Below, in pieces: positions 3,725 to 58,976 of a stretch of DNA of 64,000 bases. The notes under the pieces were generated by a model. The model had not been told where the DNA came from. It did no database searches and worked only from the letters and a program-made list of their open reading frames with translations. A program made the translations under genes and the position numbers. Every line of letters starts with the position of its first letter. Positions within the stretch are counted from its first letter, which is position 1. This DNA is from an uncultured Desulfobacteraceae bacterium (GTDB lineage: Bacteria; Desulfobacterota; DSM-4660; Desulfatiglandales; HGW-15): the NCBI GenBank assembly GCA_964520425.1, contig CAZFMX010000002.1:36809-100808 (forward strand), written 5' to 3'.

Positions 3725-5131
3725 TCAAAATTTGTTTATGCCATACTTCTTTAAAAGGTAATACAGGCGGGACCGTGAAAGACCTGAAATATGACAGGCC
3801 TCTTTGAAGTCCCTTTTGGTGAGTAGCACGAGGTCGTGCAAGTACTGCTGTTCAGCGTTGGCTAGGGCGGTATCTCGCACTTCCTGCAGTTTGGGAAGAG
3901 AAAAAACCTGAGGATCCTCTTCTGAATAGATTTCCTTCTCAGACCTTTTCTTACTGACTGATGCCCTGGCTTGGTGAACTCGGAGTTCTGTGGGCAGGTG
4001 TCTGGGAAAGAGTGTCGGCTCGAATCGAGCCATGGCCAGCACTCTCTCCATGGTATTGAGTAATTCACGAACATTTCCCGGCCAATCATACACAGTCAGT
4101 GCATCGAAAAAATCAGGAGAAAATCCCTTTGTTTCAGTGCCATATCGCTCGCAGAGCTTAGCTATGTGATGGAAGGCAATCTCCTTTATATCACCGGGGC
4201 GTGTCCTTAGAGGAGGTACCTCAATGGTCACAGCCTGGATACGGAAGTAGAGATCCTGCCTGAATTGCCCTGATTGGACCATACTTCCCAGATCCCTGTT
4301 CGTGGCCGATACGAGCCTGAAATCACTCTCAACCTCCTTATTACTGCCTAGAGGACGAAAACGACGTTCTTGGAGTGCACGCAAGAAGTCCTTTTGAACG
4401 GCCAATGGAAGTTCTCCCACTTCATCTAAGAAAAGGGTACCCCCGTCAGCCTCTTTCATGAAACCCACACGTGGCCTTTCGGCTCCGGTGAAGGCTCCTT
4501 TTTCGTGCCCGAAGAGCATACTCCCAACAAGGTTCTCGGGTAGAGCAGCACAATCGAGCACAACAAAGTTCTTAGTAGCTCGAGCACTGTTTTTGTGAAC
4601 GGTTTTGGCAAAGAGCTCTTTTCCCGTGCCGGTTTCACCCGTTATGAGCACATTTACATCGCTGTTTGCCACTTGTGCCACCAGGTCCAGGCATGCCTCC
4701 AACTCCGGACTGTTTCCCACAATACCTTCCCGCCTCAGTATCGCACGTATATTCGTCTGAGACTTTTTCTCGTGGTATTGGAGGGCACGAGTTATCTGCA
4801 GACCAAGATTATCCATATTAAATGGTTTCTGAACATAGGCCCAAGCGCCGGTTTCTATGGCAAGCTCCGCGCCATCCGGATCACCCTCTCCTGTGATAAT
4901 AATAACCTCTGGAGAAGAATCCGCTTTCTGCATCATAGGAAGTGCATCCAGACCGTTTCCATCAGGCAGACGTACATCGAGAAAAACTACGTCAAATGCG
5001 TCGGACAATACTTCCTTAAGCCCGTCTTCAAGGGTCAAGACAGAGGCGCACTCGTGTCCCATACGCTCAATATAACGGGTCAGTGTCTTACATATCATCT
5101 TGTCGTCATCAACAATCAGAATCTTGGACAT
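3725..5131 (-). CDS. NtrC-family sigma54-dependent response regulator (REC-AAA+-HTH)
   Basis: REC domain; Walker A GETGTGKE; GAFTGA; Walker B LFLDEVGE; WPGNVREL; C-terminal Fis-like HTH. Confidence 0.95.
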   Translation of the reverse strand: MSKILIVDDDKMICKTLTRYIERMGHECASVLTLEDGLKEVLSDAFDVVFLDVRLPDGNGLDALPMMQKADSSPEVIIITGEGDPDGAELAIETGAWAYVQKPFNMDNLGLQITRALQYHEKKSQTNIRAILRREGIVGNSPELEACLDLVAQVANSDVNVLITGETGTGKELFAKTVHKNSARATKNFVVLDCAALPENLVGSMLFGHEKGAFTGAERPRVGFMKEADGGTLFLDEVGELPLAVQKDFLRALQERRFRPLGSNKEVESDFRLVSATNRDLGSMVQSGQFRQDLYFRIQAVTIEVPPLRTRPGDIKEIAFHHIAKLCERYGTETKGFSPDFFDALTVYDWPGNVRELLNTMERVLAMARFEPTLFPRHLPTELRVHQARASVSKKRSEKEIYSEEDPQVFSLPKLQEVRDTALANAEQQYLHDLVLLTKRDFKEACHISGLSRSRLYYLLKKYGINKF

Positions 5132-50898: not shown

Positions 50899-51030
50899 GC
50901 CGGATTTAAAAAGATCTTGTAGCTAGCGTGCTCTTTAAACGGAAGAACTGATGTTACAGGATTTGAGGCCTGCTGATTGAGATTTCATGGCGTAAGTCTC
51001 TCCTGCAGAGTCTTGAAAGCATACAGAGGA

Positions 51031-51936
51031 ATGGAACAAGAAATCATAGCTCTTATTCATGATAAAGGCCCTCTCACTGGTTCAGAGATAATGGAGTCTG
51101 TTGGCGGTGACGGCTTAATACTCTGGCGAACCTGCAGGCTCTCCAAGGACTTGGTGATTCGAATCGTTGGGACGAGGTATATGAGATTGGACCGCCGGAT
51201 CAAGGGTTTTGCCCGTCTTTCCCCTTCCATCTTAAGAGAATTCCTTACGTATTCGGTGATTGGTCTTGCCAACCAAGGCGACTCGCTGGATCAAAAAGCC
51301 CAAAGTGTCGCATCACACATTGAGACGATCAGCAAGGCAAAATCAGAGCTTGCCTACAGCATTGTCTCCACCCTGGTCGACAAACTGGGATCTGAAATCC
51401 CGATTCAGGAACAAGTCTGTTTCATCATCGGAGGGGATATCGTCTATAACATGGCCCACGACGTCCCCCGTCCCGAGCGTAGCACCGGAAAACTGGTCAA
51501 TGGTTCGGATATGGATCTGATTGTGGTGGTGGGGGACGACTTCCCGAAGGAATTAGTTGAAAGGATAGACGAAGCCATCTACAAAGAGAAACACAGGCTC
51601 TTGATCACTCCCCACTTGAGGGAGGAGATCGATTATATCGTAAAAGACCTGAACCGCATTAGAGAGCAAATCAAGTTTGACACCTTCAAACATATGGTCG
51701 CCTGTAAACTCCTTCATGAAGGGGCGTTTCTCTACGGCAGTGGGCAGGTCTTTCACAGGATCAGAGTCATACTGAAAGAGCATGGGGTCATACAAAAGCT
51801 GAATGCCCTGGAGGAAAAGGCCAAAGACTTCCGAAGACATTCAGAAAGCTTTCTCCTGCACGAGACCGGTCCGAAGATTCAGGGAGAGAGTCAATACCTC
51901 TTTTATCCCACCGAGGAGTCTGAAGAATTTGAATGA
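51031..51936 (+). CDS. Uncharacterised protein with Pol-beta-like nucleotidyltransferase motifs
   Basis: IGGD...GSDMDLIVVV and a later EIDYIV acidic motif; long clean ORF (opens at 50977, ATG at 51031). Confidence 0.65.
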   Translation: MEQEIIALIHDKGPLTGSEIMESVGGDGLILWRTCRLSKDLVIRIVGTRYMRLDRRIKGFARLSPSILREFLTYSVIGLANQGDSLDQKAQSVASHIETISKAKSELAYSIVSTLVDKLGSEIPIQEQVCFIIGGDIVYNMAHDVPRPERSTGKLVNGSDMDLIVVVGDDFPKELVERIDEAIYKEKHRLLITPHLREEIDYIVKDLNRIREQIKFDTFKHMVACKLLHEGAFLYGSGQVFHRIRVILKEHGVIQKLNALEEKAKDFRRHSESFLLHETGPKIQGESQYLFYPTEESEEFE

Positions 51937-52056: not shown

Positions 52057-53430
52057 TCACCGTTTGACAAGCCGGCTCTGAATCCCCTTTGACGCCAGTT
52101 CAATATGCTCTTTTTCAGCGTCCTCCTTATAATAAAAAGCTCCGCTAAAAAGAAGAGATTCACCGTTATCTCCTTCAATTACATAGGGACAGTACCCCAA
52201 CTCTACAAGGGATAGGTTCTTTTCTGTGAGTTCTTCATCCGAACTGAAAAGGCCTATGAGGTTAGCATAAAGGACATACCTGGATCTCCCCTCAGTTATC
52301 TGATTTTTCTCGATAAATGCGTTTACTTCGTCTTTTGTCTGGAAATACCCGGCCAAGACCCTGTACCATACACCCTTCTCCCCAAGATCGACTCTCACCC
52401 AATATGGAGACAATCCCTTCTTTTTAAAAATGGAAATGGCTTCCTGAATGCGATCTATGTTTTTATAGGAGCCCAAATAGATGGAATAAGGATATGATTT
52501 TCTTTCATCCCTCTGAAACATCTCGGTCTTTGCCGCCTCGTCACTATGAGTCGACCTGGAATGTTGAGGATTTGCAGGAGAAACCTCCTGTTTTGCGGTG
52601 ACAATGGTTTCTTTGGGTGTCTCAGAAACAGGGTTATCGGGCTTTTTGGGGGTCGACCCTTCAATCATCCCCTTTTCCGGTCCGATTGGCGGTGGTTCAG
52701 GAGTTTTGTTCTCATTATCCAGTTTTACGGTCTCAACTGCCGCTGCCGAGGTCGTTGGGATGGTGACATCCTGCTTCACAGGGGCAGGATTCTCAATCAT
52801 TTCGTTTTTCGCCAACGCGATCGCCTGATCGTCATCAAATAGGTATAATGGCGCTAAACGAGTTCCCAAAAAGGTCAAAAGAACGCCCATAACAAAAGGC
52901 AATCCAATATTTAAGGTCGTCAAACTAAAAATGGACCTTCTTTGAGGATGGCTACTCACCTCTTGGGGGAGAACAAAACCTTCAGAAACAGCAGGGCTTT
53001 CTCTTTTCACAACATGGCTTTGGGAAATCCTTTTATCCCTGTTTCTCTGAATGGCAGGTACTGACCTTTTTACAGAGACACTCTTTTGAGGTTTCTCTTG
53101 TACATGGGCTTTGATCCTGGAACTCTTTATAGTGGTGTTCCCGGACACAGCAGGCTTCCTGACTTGAGTCTTCCTTTTTTTTGTCCTGGCCTCTATTTCG
53201 GAATTAAAAGGCCGCATCTGCCTCCCTCGATGATTTATTGGTATCCGCTTTTGAGCGTTTTTCATCGGTCTGACGGCTGCGCTACTCTCGCTTGTTGCTG
53301 ATTTAGGGCGTGTTTTCTCTTTGACGCGCCTAATCTTGGATTCCTTTGATTCTTCAAACAGGCTTGCCAGCAGTTCTATCGTATTAGGAGACCCCTTGCT
53401 CTCTTCATGGGCATTATCAATGTTGTTCAT
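52057..53430 (-). CDS. Single-TM protein with two C-terminal SPOR-like domains
   Basis: Basic low-complexity N-terminus, TM LNIGLPFVMGVLLTFLG, YSIYLGSYKN..YWVRVDLGEKGVWYRVLAG and YANLIG repeats. Start at ATG 53430 after an AAGGA SD. Confidence 0.82.
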   Translation of the reverse strand: MNNIDNAHEESKGSPNTIELLASLFEESKESKIRRVKEKTRPKSATSESSAAVRPMKNAQKRIPINHRGRQMRPFNSEIEARTKKRKTQVRKPAVSGNTTIKSSRIKAHVQEKPQKSVSVKRSVPAIQRNRDKRISQSHVVKRESPAVSEGFVLPQEVSSHPQRRSIFSLTTLNIGLPFVMGVLLTFLGTRLAPLYLFDDDQAIALAKNEMIENPAPVKQDVTIPTTSAAAVETVKLDNENKTPEPPPIGPEKGMIEGSTPKKPDNPVSETPKETIVTAKQEVSPANPQHSRSTHSDEAAKTEMFQRDERKSYPYSIYLGSYKNIDRIQEAISIFKKKGLSPYWVRVDLGEKGVWYRVLAGYFQTKDEVNAFIEKNQITEGRSRYVLYANLIGLFSSDEELTEKNLSLVELGYCPYVIEGDNGESLLFSGAFYYKEDAEKEHIELASKGIQSRLVKR

Positions 53431-53455
53431 TCGGTTATCCTTCTTTTCAAGAATG

Positions 53456-53740
53456 TCATAAACAAAGACCCGATTGCTGCTGTTTCTCATCGAATTGCCT
53501 GTGGGTGATCCTTCGTTCAAAGCGGTGGCCGCTCCTCAGATCAGAAAAATTTCTGTTATATAACGCTTTTCTCCGATCCTTGCCATTTCTCCGGTCCCGG
53601 CTTAACCCATAGTCTTTTCCAAGCCTTCTCTCTGGAATATGATTTGAATAGGCAAAACGCCTGCGATCTTGTCCTGAACGTCTGCCGCCATTATCCGTGT
53701 GAAATGATCTTAACATTCCGATATTTTTATACATAACCAT
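53456..53740 (-). CDS. Small Arg-rich protein with (D/E)RR repeats
   Basis: RRSGQDRRR, ERRLGKD, DRRNGKDRRK, ERR; AGAGG SD. Confidence 0.7.
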   Translation of the reverse strand: MVMYKNIGMLRSFHTDNGGRRSGQDRRRFAYSNHIPERRLGKDYGLSRDRRNGKDRRKALYNRNFSDLRSGHRFERRITHRQFDEKQQQSGLCL

Positions 53741-53785
53741 ATACCTCTTTCCGTATACTACTGACGGGCATCGTCGATAAGATGC

Positions 53786-53965
53786 CTATTGTATCACTCC
53801 CCAAGAACTCATTTTTTTGTTGTTATAGATATCTTCCTTATAAATCTGGAGCCACGATCTTCTTTCACCCATGAAAACACTTCGCAGCTTTCTCAGTGAT
53901 ATCTTGACCTTCTTCCTTTCTCCGGAACAGTCCGGGAATGAATTCCGACATTCTGTTTCCGACAT
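53786..53965 (-). CDS. Possible small basic protein (degenerate ERR-type)
   Basis: ORF open from 54025; best SD (AGAGG) precedes ATG 53965; contains SGERKK and GERRS. Confidence 0.4.
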   Translation of the reverse strand: MSETECRNSFPDCSGERKKVKISLRKLRSVFMGERRSWLQIYKEDIYNNKKMSSWGVIQ

Positions 53966-54061
53966 TCTTCCTCTTTTAGGATCCGCTATGATCTTCATGG
54001 CTTTCATCTTATTGATCTTTGTCACAAAGTAAAATGTTGCTGCCCTTCTGACTCATCTACC

Positions 54062-54077
54062 AGCAAGCAGTGTGCCA
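54062..54077 (-). promoter_or_regulatory. Sigma54 (-24/-12) promoter
   Basis: Minus strand TGGCACA-ctgc-TTGCT, an essentially perfect consensus. IHF-like TTTCAA-ccag-TTA at 54117-54129; palindrome ATGAAATTTCAT at 54188-54199. Confidence 0.8.
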
Positions 54078-54273
54078 AGAAGGGCGGATGAGAGATAAAT
54101 CGATTTATAGATATAATTTCAACCAGTTATACAACAAGCAGAAATGCGTGACAGGACTGTAAAGAAAAAGCTTCCCTTAGAAAGGAAATGAAATTTCATA
54201 TACTGGTAAGAATTTACTCAGATTTCGGGGTAGAAAAACGAAAAGAGGAGGCAGGAGAACCAAAACGGTTCTC

Positions 54274-57200
54274 TTATCTTTCAACGAGTTGGCTCTTGAT
54301 TCCCTTTGTATTCAAATCAAGCTGCGCTTTCTCTGCATCGGCCTTTTGATAAAACGCCCCCGTGAAGAGGTGAGATTTGCCATCAGATGCCTCAATGACA
54401 TATGGACTGAATTCCAGATTCAAAAGAGAAAGGCGCATCCGGTCAAGTTCCTCTTCCGAACTGTAGGTTCCTATGAGATTGGCATAGGTTGTGCGCCTGG
54501 ACTCTCCATCCGCTATTTGATAGTTATTGATGAATGTCTCGGCCTGGTCCTTGGTTTGGAAACAGCCGATATAGACCCTGTACCATATCCCTTTCTCTCC
54601 AAGGTCGGTCTTCACCCAGTAAGAAGCCCCCTTTGTTTTCAATTCGGAAGCCGCTTTCCGGGCACGATCAAGGTTTTTGTAGGAGCCGACATAGACAGAA
54701 TATGGATAGGAGAATTCAGGGGCAGCCTCAGGTATAACCCCTTGTTTCTTATGGGTTTTCACTTGAGGCGCAACATTCTTGACCGAACCCGAACCTACCA
54801 ATGCACCCGGTTCTATCTTCCGGACTTCGGCATCTACAAGCTGCCGCTCTTTGACGTATTCCTCTGCCTCGCTCCTGGTTTCGAATTGTCCTGTAAAGAC
54901 CCTGTACCATATTCCCTTGTCTCCCAGATCCACTTCTTGCCAATAGAGAGATGACAGGCCGTTCTCGTTATATTTGGAAATGGCCTTTTCTGTACTTTTA
55001 AGGGTGCTATAAGAGCCAAGGTATACCGAAAAGGGATGAGATATCGATGTCTTTATCTGATTTGACTCAGCTTTTACAGAAGCGTCACCGGGCGGAGGGG
55101 GGGTTGCGGGTTCAGGGGGTTGGGGCTGGACTTCTAGGTCAGTAGTGATAAGGGTTCTCTTCGGTGTCGTGGAGGTCGTGTTCTGATCTAGAGGAGAAGA
55201 TCCCTCAACACTCTCTTTCATCGCCAGGATGGTTGGAGGTTCAGAGGTCGAAGGTTTTACCTCCGGGATAACGGCCTTAACGGTCTCCTTCTGAGTCTCA
55301 GGACCTGCATTTCGCTTCCTGGGAACATGAGCACGAACGATTTCCTTCTCTACTGAAGCAGGAGTGGAAGGTTGAATTCCTTGTCTTGTAACTGGGGACT
55401 TCTCTCTCAAAGTCTTAGGGGTAACTCCCTGCTTCTTGGGAGAAGAGACCTCAACAGACTTGTCACTCATCAGCTTCTGCGCTTGCTCATGCTTGAAGAA
55501 ATCAAGGGGTGAATATCGGATACCCAAAATGATTGCCAGAATTCCAAATAGGATAAGGGGCAGCCCAATTCTTATGACCTTTGAGCGGTGTCCGGATCTC
55601 CTTATAAGCTGGAGATCCTCCTCAGTAAGTGCAACACCTTCCTCCAGGTCCGCGGGTTCCTCTTTCTCAGGTTTTACGGATTCAGAAACCCTCTCAAATT
55701 CATCCTCTCCCTCTGGCACGGATCCTTCTTCAGCTTCTGGTTTATGATGATGCTCCTCCTCATCCGTGCTGACTTTAGAATCCTCGGAGGACATTAAACT
55801 GGGCATGAGTATTTCTTTTAATCGAGGCTCTTCCTTTGCCGGCTCTGATGAGTCCGAAAGAGGCTCTATCTCCATGCCAACCGCCTCAGAAGTCCTTTCT
55901 ATATCTTCCTTCTTGTCTTCAAGTATCGGCCTCTCCTTGTCTTCTAGTATATGATGGACTTCAAACACATTTGCCTCGATCCCGGAAGTCTTGGAGAGTA
56001 TCGGTGTAAATGCGGCAGGTTTCTCTTGGGATAGGGTCTTCTCCTTCGTCATCTCGGCATTCGCAGAATCTGAAGGCTGCTCCTCTACAAAATCGATGGA
56101 TTGAGGAGCTTCCTCAACATCTTCTTTCCTGTCTTCTGGTATTGACTCCTCTTCATATTCAAATGTGGATTCAGGATATATTTCTTGCTTGCTTGCTTCA
56201 GGCAAGGAGTCCTCTATGATTATTGCACTGGGGGCTGCAGGTTTCTCTTGAAATAGAGGGCCTTCTTCTGCTGCTCCATCAATCCCTTCAATATCTGCAG
56301 AAACCTCTTCCTTTAGATCGTCGCTGTCAAGGGCTATTCCAACATCGACCTCTTCTTCCTCAGATGCCGAGCTTTCCCCAGCGGATGCTTTTTCGTCTCC
56401 TTGTTTTTCACTCCCTTCAAGCGCGGAAATCATCGTACTGAGAGCGGATTTCTCCAAAAGCTCCGTGATCTCCCCATCCGCCCCGGTGATGCTCTCAATA
56501 TCTGAGGAAGTCTCTTCCCTGGAATCATCACTATCAAAAAAAATCTCAATACCGGTATCCTCTTCCTCAGGTACCGGACTCTCCTCAGCCGATGCTTTCT
56601 TGTCTCCTTTCTTCCCACTCACTTCGAGTTCAGAAATCATGGAATCAAGTGTGGTTTTTTGCAGAACCTCCGTGATATCCTCATCCGCCCCGGTAATGCT
56701 CTCGATATCTGAGGAAGTCTCTTCCCTGGAATCATCACTATCAAAAAATATCTCAACACCGGCATCCTCTTCCTCAGGTACCGGACTCTCCTCAGCCGAT
56801 GCTTTACCGTCTCCTTTCTTCCCACTCATTTCGAGTTCAGAAATCATGGAATCAAGTGTGGTTTTTTGTAGAACCTCCGTGATATCCTCATCCGCCCCGG
56901 TAATGCTCTCGATATCTGAGGAAGTCTCTTCCCTGGAATCATCACTATCAAAAAATATCTCAACACCGGCATCCTCTTCCTCAGGTACCGGACTCTCCTC
57001 AGCCGATGCTTTACCGTCTCCTTTCTTCCCACTCATTTCGAGCTCGGAAATCATGGAATCAAGTGTGGTTTTTCCCATGATCTCTGTGATTTCCTCGTCT
57101 GTTCCGGGAATTACCTCAATGTCCGCAGGAGGCCTGCTCCGGTCATCCTCCTTAGAAGTTTTCTCGCCACCATCTTTTTTTATCTTGAGTCGATACCTTT

Positions 57201-57795
57201 CCTCAGGTGACAGTTCGTGATAGCGGGTATTTCTGCTCCCTTTGATTCCTGCAGCCATGGAGATCATGGAATTAAGAACAGACTGATTCAGGGATTCGGT
57301 CCTCTCATCACCCGATCCGGTGATTGTCTTGGAAGGGGGGGGCTCATTCTTTGGGCCACCAGGTCTAACAATCCTCTTACCGCCACTCTCACTGGGTTTG
57401 AAACCCGGTTTGGACCCAGCCGCTGATTTACGGCGTAACTTCTGACGTCTTTGTTCAATCCTGGAGTCCTTTTGAGCTACTGAACCGGGCAGGGGTCTTT
57501 TCGGGGGAAGGGTTTTGCTCTGGGTTGCTCCGGTACTCTTTACTGATGGCGAAGGACGCCTCAGTTTCTGGGAAGTAGTCTGGGAAGTTGCCTTACCCTG
57601 ATCTCTTCTCTCTCTCGATACGACCCTCTTCTTCACCACCGACTTGGGGCGGATTCTCCGGCGGACTACCTTAATTTCGGAGCTCTTTGTATCCTTGAAA
57701 AGGCTTTCCAACAACGACGCAGTGTCGTCGCCAGGATCGTATCTTCCCTCAGAGTCATCCTTCTTATCGTTCATTTGCTTCTCTGTAGTTGGCAA
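54274..57795 (-). CDS. Large single-TM protein with acidic tandem repeats and three C-terminal SPOR-like domains
   Basis: Basic N-terminus, acidic 69-aa repeats, TM IGLPLILFGILAIILG preceded by RRSGHRSK, and three SPOR-like units (FSVYLGSY, YSVYVGSY, YANLIGTY). Confidence 0.85.
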   Translation of the reverse strand: MPTTEKQMNDKKDDSEGRYDPGDDTASLLESLFKDTKSSEIKVVRRRIRPKSVVKKRVVSRERRDQGKATSQTTSQKLRRPSPSVKSTGATQSKTLPPKRPLPGSVAQKDSRIEQRRQKLRRKSAAGSKPGFKPSESGGKRIVRPGGPKNEPPPSKTITGSGDERTESLNQSVLNSMISMAAGIKGSRNTRYHELSPEERYRLKIKKDGGEKTSKEDDRSRPPADIEVIPGTDEEITEIMGKTTLDSMISELEMSGKKGDGKASAEESPVPEEEDAGVEIFFDSDDSREETSSDIESITGADEDITEVLQKTTLDSMISELEMSGKKGDGKASAEESPVPEEEDAGVEIFFDSDDSREETSSDIESITGADEDITEVLQKTTLDSMISELEVSGKKGDKKASAEESPVPEEEDTGIEIFFDSDDSREETSSDIESITGADGEITELLEKSALSTMISALEGSEKQGDEKASAGESSASEEEEVDVGIALDSDDLKEEVSADIEGIDGAAEEGPLFQEKPAAPSAIIIEDSLPEASKQEIYPESTFEYEEESIPEDRKEDVEEAPQSIDFVEEQPSDSANAEMTKEKTLSQEKPAAFTPILSKTSGIEANVFEVHHILEDKERPILEDKKEDIERTSEAVGMEIEPLSDSSEPAKEEPRLKEILMPSLMSSEDSKVSTDEEEHHHKPEAEEGSVPEGEDEFERVSESVKPEKEEPADLEEGVALTEEDLQLIRRSGHRSKVIRIGLPLILFGILAIILGIRYSPLDFFKHEQAQKLMSDKSVEVSSPKKQGVTPKTLREKSPVTRQGIQPSTPASVEKEIVRAHVPRKRNAGPETQKETVKAVIPEVKPSTSEPPTILAMKESVEGSSPLDQNTTSTTPKRTLITTDLEVQPQPPEPATPPPPGDASVKAESNQIKTSISHPFSVYLGSYSTLKSTEKAISKYNENGLSSLYWQEVDLGDKGIWYRVFTGQFETRSEAEEYVKERQLVDAEVRKIEPGALVGSGSVKNVAPQVKTHKKQGVIPEAAPEFSYPYSVYVGSYKNLDRARKAASELKTKGASYWVKTDLGEKGIWYRVYIGCFQTKDQAETFINNYQIADGESRRTTYANLIGTYSSEEELDRMRLSLLNLEFSPYVIEASDGKSHLFTGAFYQKADAEKAQLDLNTKGIKSQLVER
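56270..57126 (-). repeat. Intragenic 207-bp (69-aa) tandem repeat, about 4 copies
   Basis: Units 56863-57069, 56656-56862 and 56449-56655 are nearly identical; a diverged fourth unit lies below and a partial unit above. Shadow ORFs recur at exactly 207-bp spacing (56618/56825/57032). Confidence 0.95.
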
Positions 57796-57857
57796 GGAAG
57801 TGACTGCACTCTACTTTAAAAACGCAACGAGCGCTAATCCCGGTTCTTAGGAGGTAC

Positions 57858-58553
57858 TCAGACTGCCTTGAAATCCTTGAGGGGTTCATCAAACTCAATA
57901 CCGACCACATGAATATCTTCACCATCCATGCTGCGTTTGGTTTTATGTCTCGCAGTCCCCTTTACCTTGACGATAGTGTAGGCACCGTAAAGCGTGATAT
58001 CTCTAAGCTTGTCTCCCACTTCTATCATATCAAGAATGTCCATATATTTATCCCGCACCAAAATTCCAAGCCCATATGCCGTGCAATCAAAAATCTCCAG
58101 TTCATAGGTCCTGTCTTTTCGGGATTCGTCTTTTACTTTCACGACGACACTAACGAAATCCGGTATTTCATCACCTCTTCGGTCTCGTCTTCGTTTTTCT
58201 CTGATGTCTATGGATTCCGGAAAACTGGCGACAAAGCCTTCGTCCGTTTCTTCACCAGGAACACTCAGACATCGCGTGTTAAAGCGGCAAGAGGTCTCTC
58301 TTAGTGAAAATAGGGCCATCATACGTGAGCCTGACTGACAAAGGGCATTTCCTTCCTCGGGGCTCAGCCTTTCAAAAACTAGGGTGGATTCTCCTTCAGT
58401 GCCTGAAGATGTGTCTCCGTAATTGACCTCCGCAATCCTTGAAACAAATGGTTGCTCATGCCCTTCAATCTTAATGGTGATTTCTGTTTTACGGGCGATT
58501 AGGTATTCAATGGTCCCTATGATCTTTTGTCTGGCGTCTGAGGATTGAGACAT
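57858..58553 (-). CDS. PilZ-domain protein (YcgR-like two-domain layout)
   Basis: REKRRRDRR (RxxxR) followed by DCTAYGLG (D-x-S/T-x-x-G) and C-terminal VGIEF. Confidence 0.75.
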   Translation of the reverse strand: MSQSSDARQKIIGTIEYLIARKTEITIKIEGHEQPFVSRIAEVNYGDTSSGTEGESTLVFERLSPEEGNALCQSGSRMMALFSLRETSCRFNTRCLSVPGEETDEGFVASFPESIDIREKRRRDRRGDEIPDFVSVVVKVKDESRKDRTYELEIFDCTAYGLGILVRDKYMDILDMIEVGDKLRDITLYGAYTIVKVKGTARHKTKRSMDGEDIHVVGIEFDEPLKDFKAV

Positions 58554-58976
58554 GAACACTTATGTAGGGGGAACCGACAGTATCTTACAATCCCGTACCT
58601 CTTCACGAAGAATGAAGTACTGTTTTTTCTCCCCCTCCATCTCCTTCTTCCTTAATAGTTCAATACTAAAGACATTTCAACGAATTGCTGGTAATAACTA
58701 AAAGGCCTGAAAAGACTCAAACAAAGCCACTCCTCAACACCAGGCCAGACTTCTGTGTGAGGGCTCAAAACTTACGCAATCAAAAATCCTCGTCTATTAC
58801 TATCCCTTTATCACGCTAAATTAAGAAAAGCTTGAAGAACAAAGACTATCATATCGGTGCATTTCACCAACTCATCATATTCCGAATACCAATATATGAT
58901 AATACAATAACTAGGAATATTCGTCAAGAATGTTCAGTGGTTATTTGTATTTCAGAGGGATTCCCGAGGCGTCTCT

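What the first reader, a model, noticed from the sequence alone, without database searches (positions are those of the whole stretch)
52057..58553. Candidate c-di-GMP/sigma54-controlled cell-wall landmark module: PilZ, giant SPOR protein, DRR proteins, second SPOR paralog
Seen: five co-oriented genes. The two SPOR proteins share an N-terminal motif (LLESLFKDTKSSEIKVVRRRIRPKS versus LLASLFEESKESKIRRVKEKTRPKS), an IGLP-starting TM helix and 3 versus 2 SPOR-like domains. The long paralog follows a PilZ gene by 62 bp; the short one follows a consensus sigma54 promoter and two Arg-rich small ORFs. Established: SPOR domains bind denuded septal glycan, PilZ binds c-di-GMP, and HubP/FimV-type landmarks combine a peptidoglycan-binding domain with long acidic cytoplasmic repeats. 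Inference: a SPOR-anchored analogue of a polar/septal hub, with a constitutive long form and an inducible short form that dock the same partner through the shared N-motif.
Basis: partly seen in the sequence, partly recalled or inferred. Interest (0 to 1): 0.66.

Follow-up and report, generated by a model that had tools for sequence, protein, structure and literature searches.

The report
SPOR cell-wall proteins paired with PilZ
An uncultured sulfate-reducer relative carries two related membrane proteins that bind the division-site cell wall, next to a sensor for the signal molecule c-di-GMP; the pairing recurs in distant relatives, so it may link that signal to the cell envelope, though no experiment has tested this.

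Summary
On the minus strand lie five ORFs:
- a 231-aa protein;
- a 1166-aa SPOR protein with an acidic 69-aa repeat array;
- two small ORFs behind a perfect sigma54 -24/-12 element;
- a 457-aa SPOR paralog.

The 231-aa protein is a two-domain YcgR/MrkH/MotI-type PilZ receptor, judged by fold and by intact RxxxR and DxTxxG motifs.

Both SPOR proteins end in SPOR plus a divergent SPOR-like domain. The giant has one extra SPOR, giving 3 versus 2.

The shared N-motif is not private to this locus. It is a family signature, [YF]SD[ST]xE[LI][FL]xx[LI]F[RK], found in 110 of 120 Desulfobacterales-type relatives.

The PilZ–SPOR adjacency recurs in three deep lineages, with PilZ only 39-44% identical between them and the gene order changed. 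Bactofilin and FHA-GAF genes are often nearby.

The sigma54 element is conserved only in the window's clade.

The second small ORF belongs to a large unnamed family of Arg-rich "DRR" proteins, which elsewhere occur fused to PilZ domains. The first small ORF is doubtful as a gene.

Best reading: a lineage-specific SPOR-anchored scaffold linked to c-di-GMP. The HubP/FimV comparison is an analogy only. Function and localisation are untested.

The parts
57858..58553 (-). YcgR-like two-domain PilZ receptor gene (231 aa). The RxxxR arm REKRRRDRR is encoded at 58176-58202 and DCTAYG (the DxS/TxxG motif) at 58071-58088.
   Evidence: Pfam PilZN scores 23.1 bits against a cut-off of 23. The AlphaFold model built from 77 homologs has pLDDT 82. 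The top 14 Foldseek PDB hits are all PilZN-PilZ c-di-GMP receptors: MrkH, PP4397, YcgR, MotI and PlzA. The motifs are conserved in the family.
58899..58927 (-). Sigma70-like promoter candidate (TTGACG-17-TATTAT) upstream of the PilZ gene. Weak evidence.
   Evidence: Consensus scan. The number of such sites in the region is not above the shuffled expectation.
54274..57774 (-). Giant bitopic SPOR protein (1166 aa from ATG 57774; the alternative TTG start is at 57795).
   Evidence: ORF list; Pfam SPOR, 90 bits; orthologs in L161, L087, L001 and L002.
57640..57723 (-). N-terminal cytoplasmic motif of the giant protein (aa 18-45, TASLLESLFKDTKSSEIKVVRRRIRPKS).
   Evidence: Nearly identical in the L161 ortholog. 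It matches the family signature found in 110 of 120 relatives.
56340..57073 (-). 207-bp (69-aa) acidic tandem repeat, 3.5 copies, within the acidic cytoplasmic region (aa 216-735, pI about 4.1-4.3). Each unit carries an L(D/S)(S/T)MIS(E/A)LE motif.
   Evidence: Tandem Repeats Finder; composition and motif positions. There are fewer copies in L161 and L087. Short-read contigs break inside the array.
55513..55578 (-). Transmembrane helix of the giant protein (VIRIGLPLILFGILAIILGIRY), preceded by basic residues, which indicates an N-in topology.
   Evidence: Sequence and hydropathy.
54277..55038 (-). Three periplasmic SPOR-type domains of the giant protein (54838-55038, 54514-54708, 54277-54489).
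   Evidence: Pfam SPOR found twice. The third domain matches the SPOR profile by hhalign, 95% probability, E 4e-8. There are weak matches to the CwlC and DedD SPOR structures.
54255..54273 (-). Hairpin GAGAACC-N5-GGTTCTC directly after the giant gene's stop codon, followed by a T-rich tract. Possible weak terminator.
   Evidence: Inverted-repeat search; sequence.
54095..54204 (-). Conserved upstream block with palindromes (ATGAAATTTCAT core at 54183-54204; ATAAATCGATTTAT at 54095-54108). Candidate activator or IHF sites.
   Evidence: Inverted repeats; conservation in five loci.
54062..54077 (-). Sigma54-type -24/-12 promoter element TGGCAC-N5-TTGCT.
   Evidence: It is the only perfect match in the window. 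The GG and GC elements are invariant in the window, L001, L002, L161 and L087, while the spacer varies. There are 11 strict matches in 2.0 Mb of fetched loci searched on both strands, four of them this site.
53786..54025 (-). orfA, a 79-aa Lys/Arg-rich ORF. It may be a dispensable small protein or part of a long leader.
   Evidence: Intact in the window, L161 and L087; frameshifted in L001; deleted in L002. Substitutions show no codon-position bias. No Pfam hit.
53456..53734 (-). orfB, a small Arg-rich 'DRR' protein (92 aa). The core DNGGRRSGQDRRRFAYSNHIPERR...DRRNGKDRR is encoded at 53567-53695.
   Evidence: Substitutions are biased to the third codon position in four orthologs. An exhaustive HMMER search found 380 related clusters at E<=1e-3. 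There is no Pfam, NCBIfam or PDB match.
52057..53430 (-). Short bitopic SPOR paralog (457 aa): N-motif at 53299-53382, TM helix at 52855-52914, SPOR at 52297-52494, SPOR-like domain at 52060-52272.
   Evidence: Pfam SPOR, 40 bits. There are 17 full-length orthologs at 48-84% identity. The C-terminal 146 aa are 59% identical to the giant protein. hhalign result.

Best explanation
The locus encodes a lineage-specific (Desulfobacterales-type) SPOR–PilZ module.

Shown:
- There are two paralogous N-in bitopic proteins whose periplasmic ends are SPOR/SPOR-like domains. Members of that domain family bind denuded septal glycan.
- The only widely conserved cytoplasmic element of these proteins is a short acidic-flanked amphipathic motif, SD[ST]xE[LI][FL]xx[LI]F[RK], near the N-terminus.
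- An adjacent gene encodes a YcgR/MrkH/MotI-type two-domain PilZ protein with intact c-di-GMP-binding motifs.
- A conserved sigma54-type promoter lies in front of orfA, orfB (a DRR small protein) and the short paralog.

Inferred:
- The SPOR proteins anchor at the septum or new pole through their SPOR domains.
- Their disordered cytoplasmic arms act as scaffolds. The giant paralog adds about 500 acidic residues with five copies of an LxSMISxLE motif.
- The c-di-GMP-loaded PilZ protein binds to this scaffold or controls it. The N-terminal helix is the most obvious docking site. This would couple c-di-GMP level to a septum- or pole-associated process such as division, local peptidoglycan remodelling or cytoskeleton positioning.
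- In the window's clade the ancestral-type SPOR gene was duplicated. The PilZ-adjacent copy grew into the giant form. The copy that kept the ancestral size is co-transcribed with the DRR protein from the sigma54 promoter, and so is produced on demand.
For: - PilZ identity: model pLDDT 82, and every top PDB hit is a PilZN-PilZ c-di-GMP receptor. RxxxR and D/NxS/TxxG are conserved across 77 homologs.
- SPOR identity and domain counts.
- Conserved adjacency of this PilZ family with N-motif SPOR genes:
  - the window clade (W, L087, L161, the P0135 contig);
  - L169/L170, where PilZ precedes SPOR and PilZ is 43% identical;
  - L084, L163/165 and L167/168, where the order is SPOR, 118-aa PilZ, 233-aa PilZ.
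  - PilZ identity between these lineages is 39-44%.
  - Five exact contig-length matches between the SPOR and PilZ hit lists point to further co-resident pairs.
- The 118-aa neighbour is a stand-alone PilZ domain (hhalign 98.6%, E 1e-15).
- Two family members replace the N-motif with a cyclic-nucleotide-binding domain. The cytoplasmic end of this SPOR family is therefore a recurrent input point for nucleotide signals.
- The DRR core is fused to PilZ domains in P0183, whose N-terminal part is 39% identical to the syntenic 118-aa PilZ (E 6e-23), and in P0281.
- N-motif conservation.
- Sigma54 element conservation.
- Metatranscriptome contigs from related organisms cover orfA, orfB, the PilZ gene and parts of the SPOR genes.
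- Precedent for docking through an N-terminal peptide in a bitopic envelope protein: the first 13 residues of PbpC bind bactofilin BacA (PMC12448750).
Against: - No interaction, localisation or ligand-binding data exist. All organisms involved are uncultured.
- The N-motif is also present in SPOR genes with no adjacent PilZ, in AIR-synthase/SLT contexts and in the complete genome behind L171.
- Some PilZ family members are not next to a SPOR gene: L162 at 61% identity, and L173 and L174/175 at 31-37%.
- Only three deep lineages show the pair, and two of them share the same gene order, so inherited synteny explains part of the signal.
- Pfam's PilZ model itself does not reach E<=0.1 on the window protein, and a sequence profile found no PilZ structure in the PDB.
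- The window protein has Thr where the canonical motif has Ser.
- No sigma54 activator gene is nearby.
- The sigma54 element is absent from the other PilZ–SPOR loci.
Confidence: 0.45

Rival explanations
1. These are ordinary DedD/DamX/FtsN-class divisome accessory proteins. They would be the lineage's septal SPOR proteins, with the N-motif contacting a core divisome protein such as FtsA or FtsZ. The neighbouring PilZ gene would then have an unrelated role and sit there by inherited gene order.
For: The architecture is the same as DamX, DedD and FtsN: bitopic, N-in, with a C-terminal SPOR domain. Source databases name relatives DedD, FtsN or DamX. Many N-motif SPOR genes have no adjacent PilZ. 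One close PilZ homolog lies a few kb from ftsZ and not next to a SPOR gene.
Against: The NCBIfam DedD and RlpA equivalog scores are far below their cut-offs: 15.9 against 150, and 19.6 against 201. No FtsN-like essential periplasmic motif was recognised; the juxtamembrane motif here is G(I/V)VDFGxLLG. None of the fetched loci lies in a division/cell-wall gene cluster. The PilZ adjacency survives a change of gene order across lineages whose PilZ proteins are only about 40% identical. Fusions to a cyclic-nucleotide-binding domain argue for signalling input.
Confidence: 0.25
2. One reading: a HubP/FimV-like polar landmark hub, with a constitutive long form and a sigma54-inducible short form that compete for, or share, one client through the N-motif and recruit ParA-like or chemotaxis clients.
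For: The giant protein has a long acidic repeat-bearing cytoplasmic region (pI about 4.1, 69-aa units) plus cell-wall-binding domains. The N-motif is shared. A conserved sigma54 element precedes the short paralog.
Against: The topology is opposite to HubP/FimV: here the cell-wall-binding domain is C-terminal and is SPOR, not LysM. No FimV C-terminal motif or TPR was found. No ParA, Che or pilus genes occur in the window locus or the related loci examined. SPOR domains are known for septal rather than old-pole targeting. On the P0135 contig the small ORFs are present but the short paralog is absent.
Confidence: 0.15
3. The SPOR proteins are bactofilin adaptors. The N-terminal motif would dock bactofilin polymers, as the first 13 residues of PbpC dock BacA. 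This would tether a cytoplasmic bactofilin scaffold to septal peptidoglycan, with the PilZ protein as a modulator.
For: Bactofilin genes lie within a few kb of the SPOR–PilZ pair in L163/165, L167/168 and L007. There is published precedent for a conserved N-terminal peptide in a bitopic cell-wall protein binding bactofilin (PMC12448750).
Against: No bactofilin gene is present in the 64-kb window, nor in L161, L087 or L169/170. No sequence comparison with the PbpC peptide could be made because the paper text read here does not give its sequence. The adjacency is seen in only one deep lineage.
Confidence: 0.1
4. The proteins are accessories of envelope polysaccharide export or secretion, in the manner of ExeA/GspA: a peptidoglycan-binding partner of an AAA ATPase that helps assemble an export machine.
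For: More distant proteins that share the SPOR/SPOR-like C-terminal domains sit next to an AAA_22 ATPase and a Poly_export/SLBB protein in 13-15 loci.
Against: Those proteins lack the N-motif. No AAA_22, export or glycosyltransferase genes flank the window locus; its neighbours are PabAB, CNNM, MobA and FdhD genes.
Confidence: 0.03

Closest known systems
DamX / DedD / FtsN (bitopic SPOR-domain divisome proteins of Proteobacteria)
   Same: N-in single-pass membrane proteins with a largely disordered cytoplasmic and periplasmic body and a C-terminal SPOR domain. Relatives are annotated with these names.
   Different: - They end in a tandem SPOR plus divergent SPOR-like domain, and the giant protein has three.
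- They carry a distinct conserved N-terminal motif and a juxtamembrane VDFG motif.
- They do not reach the DedD or RlpA equivalog cut-offs.
- No FtsN essential-domain motif was recognised.
- They are genetically paired with a PilZ receptor.
- The giant form has a cytoplasmic arm of about 730 aa with acidic repeats.
YcgR / MotI (DgrA) / MrkH / PP4397 / PlzA (two-domain PilZN-PilZ c-di-GMP receptors)
   Same: The two-domain fold is the same, with Foldseek E values of 1.8e-9 to 6e-4. The inter-domain RxxxR arm and the D/NxSxxG motif are present.
   Different: Sequence identity to solved structures is only 9-16%. The gene context is a SPOR protein rather than flagellar, fimbrial or DNA targets, so the 'flagellar brake' label carried by some database entries is probably not its role. 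The window protein has DxTxxG.
HubP (Vibrio) / FimV (Pseudomonas) polar landmark proteins
   Same: A peptidoglycan-binding domain, one TM helix and a long, very acidic, repeat-containing cytoplasmic region.
   Different: The topology is reversed and the cell-wall-binding domain is SPOR instead of LysM. There is no FimV C-terminal motif. No known client genes are nearby. This is an analogy of design, not membership.
PbpC–BacA (Caulobacter), Csd5–CcmA (Helicobacter), LmdC–BacA (Hyphomonas): bitopic cell-wall proteins recruited by a cytoplasmic scaffold
   Same: A bitopic envelope protein whose short conserved N-terminal cytoplasmic peptide is the docking element (PMC12448750). Bactofilin genes neighbour the SPOR–PilZ pair in one related lineage.
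   Different: The periplasmic part is a SPOR binder rather than an enzyme or an SH3 domain. There is no bactofilin gene in the window. No evidence of binding exists.

Membership tests
SPOR-domain bitopic division proteins (FtsN/DedD/DamX class) | SPOR domain (Pfam PF05036) above the gathering score at the C-terminal, periplasmic end | tested here: met
   Giant 90.1 bits (two stretches) and short 40.1 bits, against a cut-off of 21. The extra C-terminal domain matches the SPOR profile by hhalign, 95% probability.
SPOR-domain bitopic division proteins (FtsN/DedD/DamX class) | Single TM helix with the N-terminus in the cytoplasm | tested here: met
   There is one strongly hydrophobic segment per protein, with basic residues on its N-terminal side. 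This is a prediction from sequence only.
FtsN specifically | Short periplasmic essential (E) domain motif between the TM helix and SPOR | tested here: inconclusive
   The only conserved periplasmic element outside SPOR is a juxtamembrane G(I/V)VDFGxLLG-type motif. No FtsN-like motif was recognised by inspection, and no FtsN profile was available to score.
DedD / RlpA equivalogs (NCBIfam) | Score above the curated equivalog cut-off | tested here: not met
   DedD 15.9 bits against 150; RlpA 19.6 bits against 201.
SPOR-domain bitopic division proteins (FtsN/DedD/DamX class) | Binding to denuded glycan and septal localisation | not testable with these tools
   Requires sacculus-binding assays and fluorescent fusions.
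YcgR-like PilZN-PilZ c-di-GMP receptors | Two-domain PilZN plus PilZ beta-barrel fold | tested here: met
   Model pLDDT 82. The top 14 Foldseek hits are MrkH, PP4397, YcgR, MotI and PlzA. The YcgR N-domain alone gives a target-normalised TM-score of 0.72.
YcgR-like PilZN-PilZ c-di-GMP receptors | RxxxR arm and (D/N)xSxxG motif | tested here: met
   REKRRRDRR and DCTAYG in the window, with Thr in place of Ser. Canonical DRSPDG and DCSAAG occur in syntenic homologs. R121, R125 and G161 are invariant in 77 sequences.
YcgR-like PilZN-PilZ c-di-GMP receptors | Pfam PilZN / PilZ models above the gathering score | tested here: inconclusive
   PilZN scores 23.1 against a cut-off of 23. PF07238 (PilZ) gives no hit at E<=0.1 on the window protein. 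A few homologs carry precomputed PF07317, and one carries PF07238.
YcgR-like PilZN-PilZ c-di-GMP receptors | Flagellar or motor gene context (for a 'flagellar brake' role) | tested here: not met
   No flagellar or mot genes occur in any of the fetched loci. The neighbours are SPOR, PilZ, bactofilin and FHA-GAF genes.
YcgR-like PilZN-PilZ c-di-GMP receptors | c-di-GMP binding | not testable with these tools
   Requires a binding assay.
Sigma54-dependent promoter | -24 GG and -12 GC elements with the TGGCAC-N5-TTGCW consensus and spacing | tested here: met
   Perfect match at 54077..54062, the only one in the window.
Sigma54-dependent promoter | Conservation at the orthologous position | tested here: met
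   The -24 and -12 bases are invariant in five loci while the spacer bases vary. The strict motif is rare in 2 Mb of loci.
Sigma54-dependent promoter | Cognate enhancer-binding protein and upstream activator sites | tested here: inconclusive
   Conserved palindromes lie 20-130 bp upstream. The only activator gene in the window is 49 kb away, at 3725-5131.
HubP/FimV landmark proteins | N-terminal periplasmic LysM domain and FimV C-terminal motif | tested here: not met
   Pfam finds SPOR only, at the C-terminus. There is no LysM or FimV hit.
HubP/FimV landmark proteins | Long acidic repeat-rich cytoplasmic region | tested here: met
   aa 216-735 have a pI of about 4.1-4.3, with 3.5 units of 69 aa.
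Bactofilin client proteins (PbpC type) | Bactofilin gene in the genome neighbourhood, and binding through the N-terminal peptide | tested here: not met
   There is no bactofilin gene in the window. Bactofilin genes are present near the pair only in the L163-L168 lineage and in L007. Binding is not testable.
Unnamed 'DRR' small-protein family (orfB) | Core DNGGRRSGxDRRxFSYxxHIPERRxGxDRR followed by DRR repeats | tested here: met
   380 related clusters at E<=1e-3, and orfB scores 85 bits against the family HMM. The invariant and near-invariant columns include G16, G17, R18, R19, P34, E35, R36 and R37.

The most novel reading that the evidence does not exclude
A previously undescribed c-di-GMP output pathway in Desulfobacterales.

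- A YcgR-like PilZ receptor, in some lineages together with a stand-alone PilZ, docks on the conserved N-terminal helix of a septal-peptidoglycan-anchored SPOR scaffold. The second messenger would then act directly at the division site or new pole.
- The unnamed DRR small-protein family (380 or more clusters, with no Pfam or PDB relative, and fused to PilZ domains in some proteins) would be a new class of PilZ-associated partner or c-di-GMP-related effector. In this clade it is expressed from a sigma54 promoter.
Probability: 0.3. Interest if true: 0.75.

Novelty: new variant of a known kind. Interest (0 to 1): 0.52.

Why it matters
SPOR proteins and PilZ receptors are each well known, but full-text searches of the paper library found no report of a conserved genetic pairing between them.

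If the pairing is functional, it would give c-di-GMP a direct handle on a septum-anchored scaffold in a large, environmentally important and poorly studied group of anaerobes.

It would also supply three ready-made objects for experiment:
- a 13-residue docking motif present in 110 of 120 family members;
- a natural pair of long and short scaffold paralogs;
- an uncharacterised, widespread Arg-rich small-protein family linked to PilZ domains.

If the pairing is not functional, the locus is simply a lineage-specific pair of DedD/DamX-like proteins.

Tried and rejected
- A single-sequence AlphaFold run of the PilZ protein gave an unusable model (pLDDT 45). It was replaced by a run on a 77-sequence alignment.
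- A sequence-profile search of the PDB with the PilZ family found only a chance fatty-acid-binding-protein hit.
- Rfam scans found nothing beyond a tRNA in the window, and nothing credible in L161/L087, including the long PilZ–SPOR spacer of those relatives.
- The metagenome and genome scans seeded with the short paralog returned mostly distant SPOR proteins and few close orthologs.
- The DRR HMM found no family member near SPOR genes outside the window's clade in 2 Mb of loci.
- A tblastn search of the DRR consensus against plasmids found nothing.
- Literature searches for the DRR motif strings and for Arg-rich sigma54-dependent small proteins were uninformative.
- orfA shows no similarity to the 73-76-aa basic ORF that follows PilZ in other lineages.
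- The 118-aa PilZ shows no BLAST similarity to the PilZ domain of P0281.
- The strict sigma54 motif is absent from the other PilZ–SPOR loci.
- L172 was rejected as a family member. It pairs a truncated PilZ with a different, signal-peptide-type SPOR protein.
- The hairpin between orfA and orfB is conserved but shows no compensatory changes, so it was not pursued as an RNA element.

Full report
**What is there**

The region lies on the minus strand. It sits between a pabB–pabC fusion and pabA upstream, and a convergent block downstream made of a conserved 301-aa gene with no Pfam match, then CNNM/CBS, MobA-like and FdhD genes.

In the direction of transcription the region holds:
- a 231-aa ORF (58553..57858);
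- a giant ORF (57774..54274 from the conserved ATG, or 57795 from a TTG);
- a perfect sigma54 -24/-12 element (54077..54062);
- orfA (54025..53786);
- orfB (53734..53456);
- a 457-aa ORF (53430..52057).

Two start codons differ from those in the mechanical ORF list. All 17 orthologs of the short protein begin at MNNID/MSNID. Orthologs of the giant protein begin at MNDKKDD.

The window comes from an uncultured Desulfobacterales-type bacterium. The nearest species-level genome is a 'Deltaproteobacteria bacterium' MAG, and all relatives are Desulfobacteraceae, Desulfatiglandales or Thermodesulfobacteriota MAGs. Two sediment metagenome runs contain the region at 100% identity outside the repeat array.

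**The two SPOR proteins**

Pfam finds SPOR twice in the giant protein (90 bits in total) and once in the short one (40 bits). The last ~75 residues of both proteins are not recognised by Pfam. A profile of that segment from the family aligns with the profile of the adjacent Pfam-positive SPOR domain at 95% probability (E 4e-8, 54 columns). The count of 3 versus 2 SPOR-like domains is therefore correct.

The C-terminal 146 residues of the paralogs are 59% identical. The TM region and periplasmic linker also align, and the N-termini align at E 1e-4.

Each protein has one hydrophobic helix containing IGLP, with basic residues on its N-terminal side. This predicts an N-in topology.

The cytoplasmic arm of the giant protein has four parts:
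- the N-motif;
- a basic segment (aa 61-215, pI 10.9);
- an acidic segment (aa 216-735, pI about 4.1-4.3) that contains 3.5 units of 69 aa;
- five L(N/D/S)(S/T)MIS motifs in all: one in the basic segment and four at 69-aa spacing in the repeats.

Orthologs have fewer repeat units. Two related contigs end inside the array. Short-read contigs of the source samples also break there, so the copy number is unverified.

**The N-motif is a family signature**

110 of the 120 best relatives of the short paralog carry [YF]-S-D-[ST]-x-E-[LI]-[FL]-x-x-[LI]-F-[RK] about 20 residues from the N-terminus. Glu is present in 95% and the last Phe in 93%. Five relatives carry two copies.

The hydrophobic positions fall at i, i+1, i+4 and i+5, flanked by acidic residues. 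From this I infer an amphipathic docking helix rather than a membrane anchor.

The motif occurs in SPOR genes in several different genomic contexts. It is absent from more distant proteins that share the SPOR/SPOR-like C-terminal domains and sit in AAA_22/polysaccharide-export loci.

Two family members lack the motif and carry a cyclic-nucleotide-binding domain at the N-terminus instead.

**The PilZ gene**

Sequence evidence alone is thin:
- Pfam PilZN scores 23.1 bits against a cut-off of 23;
- the Pfam PilZ model gives no hit;
- a family profile finds nothing in the PDB.

A model built from 77 homologs has pLDDT 82. Its 14 best PDB matches are all two-domain PilZN-PilZ c-di-GMP receptors: MrkH, PP4397, YcgR, MotI/DgrA and PlzA (E 1.8e-9 to 6e-4).

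The inter-domain arm REKRRRDRR (RxxxR) and DCTAYG (D-x-S/T-x-x-G) are conserved. Syntenic homologs have the canonical Ser.

Some database entries call relatives 'flagellar brake protein'. No flagellar genes occur in any locus I fetched.

**Synteny**

The full module (PilZ, giant SPOR, orfA, orfB, short SPOR) is present on a 7.7-kb metagenome contig, L161.

Partial versions are as follows:
- L087 holds pabB, PilZ, giant SPOR and orfA up to the contig end.
- L001 and L002 hold giant SPOR, the small ORFs and short SPOR.
- The contig of P0135 holds PilZ, a 1026-aa SPOR protein and two small ORFs, but no short paralog.

Beyond this clade the same PilZ family sits next to an N-motif SPOR gene in two further deep lineages:
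- In L169/L170 the order is PilZ then SPOR.
- In L084, L163/165 and L167/168 the order is SPOR, a 118-aa protein, PilZ, then a basic 73-76-aa ORF.

PilZ identity between these lineages is 39-44%.

The 118-aa protein is a stand-alone PilZ domain. hhalign gives 98.6% probability (E 1e-15) against the C-terminal domain of the 231-aa family, with both binding motifs aligned.

Five exact contig-length coincidences between the SPOR and PilZ hit lists indicate further co-resident pairs.

There are exceptions:
- A 61%-identical PilZ lies near ftsZ with no SPOR gene.
- The most distant PilZ relatives (31-37% identity) sit next to HNH and tadA genes.
- Many N-motif SPOR genes have other neighbours.

Bactofilin and FHA-GAF genes recur near the pair in one lineage. 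Neither is in the window.

**The sigma54 side**

The -24 and -12 bases are identical in the window, L001, L002, L161 and L087, while the five spacer bases vary. The strict motif occurs only 11 times in 2.0 Mb of loci searched on both strands, and four of those are this site. Conserved palindromes lie upstream.

No activator gene is close. The only one in the window is at 3725-5131. The element is absent from the other PilZ–SPOR lineages.

orfB shows third-position-biased substitution in four orthologs, which indicates coding. orfA shows a flat pattern, a frameshift in L001 and a deletion in L002.

orfB ends 25 nt before the start of the short SPOR gene, so the two are probably co-transcribed (inference).

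A wetland metatranscriptome contains contigs at 80-95% identity that cover orfA, orfB, the PilZ gene and parts of both SPOR genes. This is weak evidence that relatives transcribe the region.

**The DRR protein**

An exhaustive HMMER search found 380 related clusters at E<=1e-3. Most are 55-140 aa. They share the core DNGGRRSGxDRRxFSYxxHIPERRxGxDRR followed by DRR repeats.

The family has no match in Pfam, NCBIfam or the PDB.

Two members are fusions:
- P0183 joins a PilZ domain to the DRR core. That PilZ domain is 39% identical to the syntenic 118-aa PilZ (E 6e-23).
- P0281 joins pentapeptide repeats, a Pfam PilZ domain and the DRR core.

This links orfB to the PilZ theme of the locus. Only 2 of 150 listed representatives are such fusions, and DRR genes are not near SPOR genes outside this clade.

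**Interpretation**

Shown:
- the domain identities;
- the conserved motifs;
- the conserved sigma54 element;
- the recurrence of the PilZ–SPOR pair with rearranged gene order.

Inferred:
- the SPOR ends bind septal glycan;
- the N-terminal helix docks a cytoplasmic partner;
- the PilZ protein delivers a c-di-GMP input to this scaffold.

The short paralog keeps the ancestral size and domain count. Its C-terminal domains are slightly closer to those of other lineages than the giant's are: 61% against 55% identity to L163. The giant is therefore probably the derived copy.

A published precedent exists for an N-terminal peptide of a bitopic cell-wall protein docking a cytoplasmic scaffold: residues 1-13 of PbpC bind BacA (PMC12448750).

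The HubP/FimV comparison is an analogy of design only. The topology, the type of cell-wall-binding domain and the C-terminal motif all differ.

Full-text searches for SPOR with PilZ, and for bactofilin with PilZ, found no description of such a module.

**Verdict**

The c-di-GMP link and the sigma54 element gain support from comparative data. The hub mechanism remains a hypothesis. I rate it a new variant of known kinds, of moderate interest.

Noticed in passing
window 53456-53734 (-); proteins P0146-P0295: orfB belongs to a large unnamed family of small Arg-rich proteins with the core DNGGRRSGxDRRxFSYxxHIPERRxGxDRR and DRR repeats. The search found 380 clusters at E<=1e-3. The family has no match in Pfam, NCBIfam or the PDB. 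Two members (P0183, P0281) are fused to PilZ domains.
   Followed up: partly
P0069, P0091 (relatives of the short SPOR protein): Two family members carry a cyclic-nucleotide-binding domain (PF00027, aa ~15-93) at the N-terminus in place of the N-motif, followed by the TM helix and the SPOR domains.
   Followed up: partly
window 57775-57857, compared with L161:1465-1937 and L087:7056-7519: The PilZ–giant SPOR spacer is 83 bp in the window but about 465-473 bp in two relatives. The window lacks two blocks that are well conserved between those relatives. No Rfam family matches them.
   Followed up: partly
window 53760-53780 (-), between orfA and orfB: A conserved hairpin GGCATC-N8-GATGCC is present in all five loci. 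It shows no compensatory changes. In L161 and L087 it is followed by a T-run.
   Followed up: no
L021, L033-L036, L043-L050, L097-L099: More distant proteins that share the SPOR/SPOR-like C-terminal domains but lack the N-motif sit next to an AAA_22 ATPase, a Poly_export/SLBB/FG-GAP protein and Wzy_C and GT4 genes. This is an ExeA/GspA-like arrangement in polysaccharide loci.
   Followed up: partly
L163-L168, L084, L009, L014, L015, L020, L027, L007: In related lineages the SPOR(–PilZ) genes are flanked by FHA-GAF proteins (one with a HisKA domain), by bactofilin genes and by a conserved basic 73-76-aa ORF.
   Followed up: partly
window 50977-51936 (+): A conserved 301-319-aa gene with no Pfam match lies convergent to the short SPOR gene. 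It is also next to a distant SPOR gene in L021 (64% identity).
   Followed up: no
window 56340-57073: Assemblies break inside the 207-bp repeat array: two related MAG contigs end there, and Logan contigs of the source runs fragment there. A metatranscriptome contig from a relative skips 221 bp. Copy number therefore probably varies between strains, and the copy number in the window is unverified.
   Followed up: partly
window 3725-5131 (-): This is the only sigma54 activator gene in the window, an NtrC-type response regulator with a GAFTGA motif. It lies 49 kb from the sigma54 element, and no link between them has been established.
   Followed up: no
L162:180-6171: A 61%-identical PilZ homolog lies about 4 kb downstream of ftsZ, after a radical-SAM gene and a DksA/TraR-type zinc-finger gene. 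No SPOR gene is nearby.
   Followed up: no
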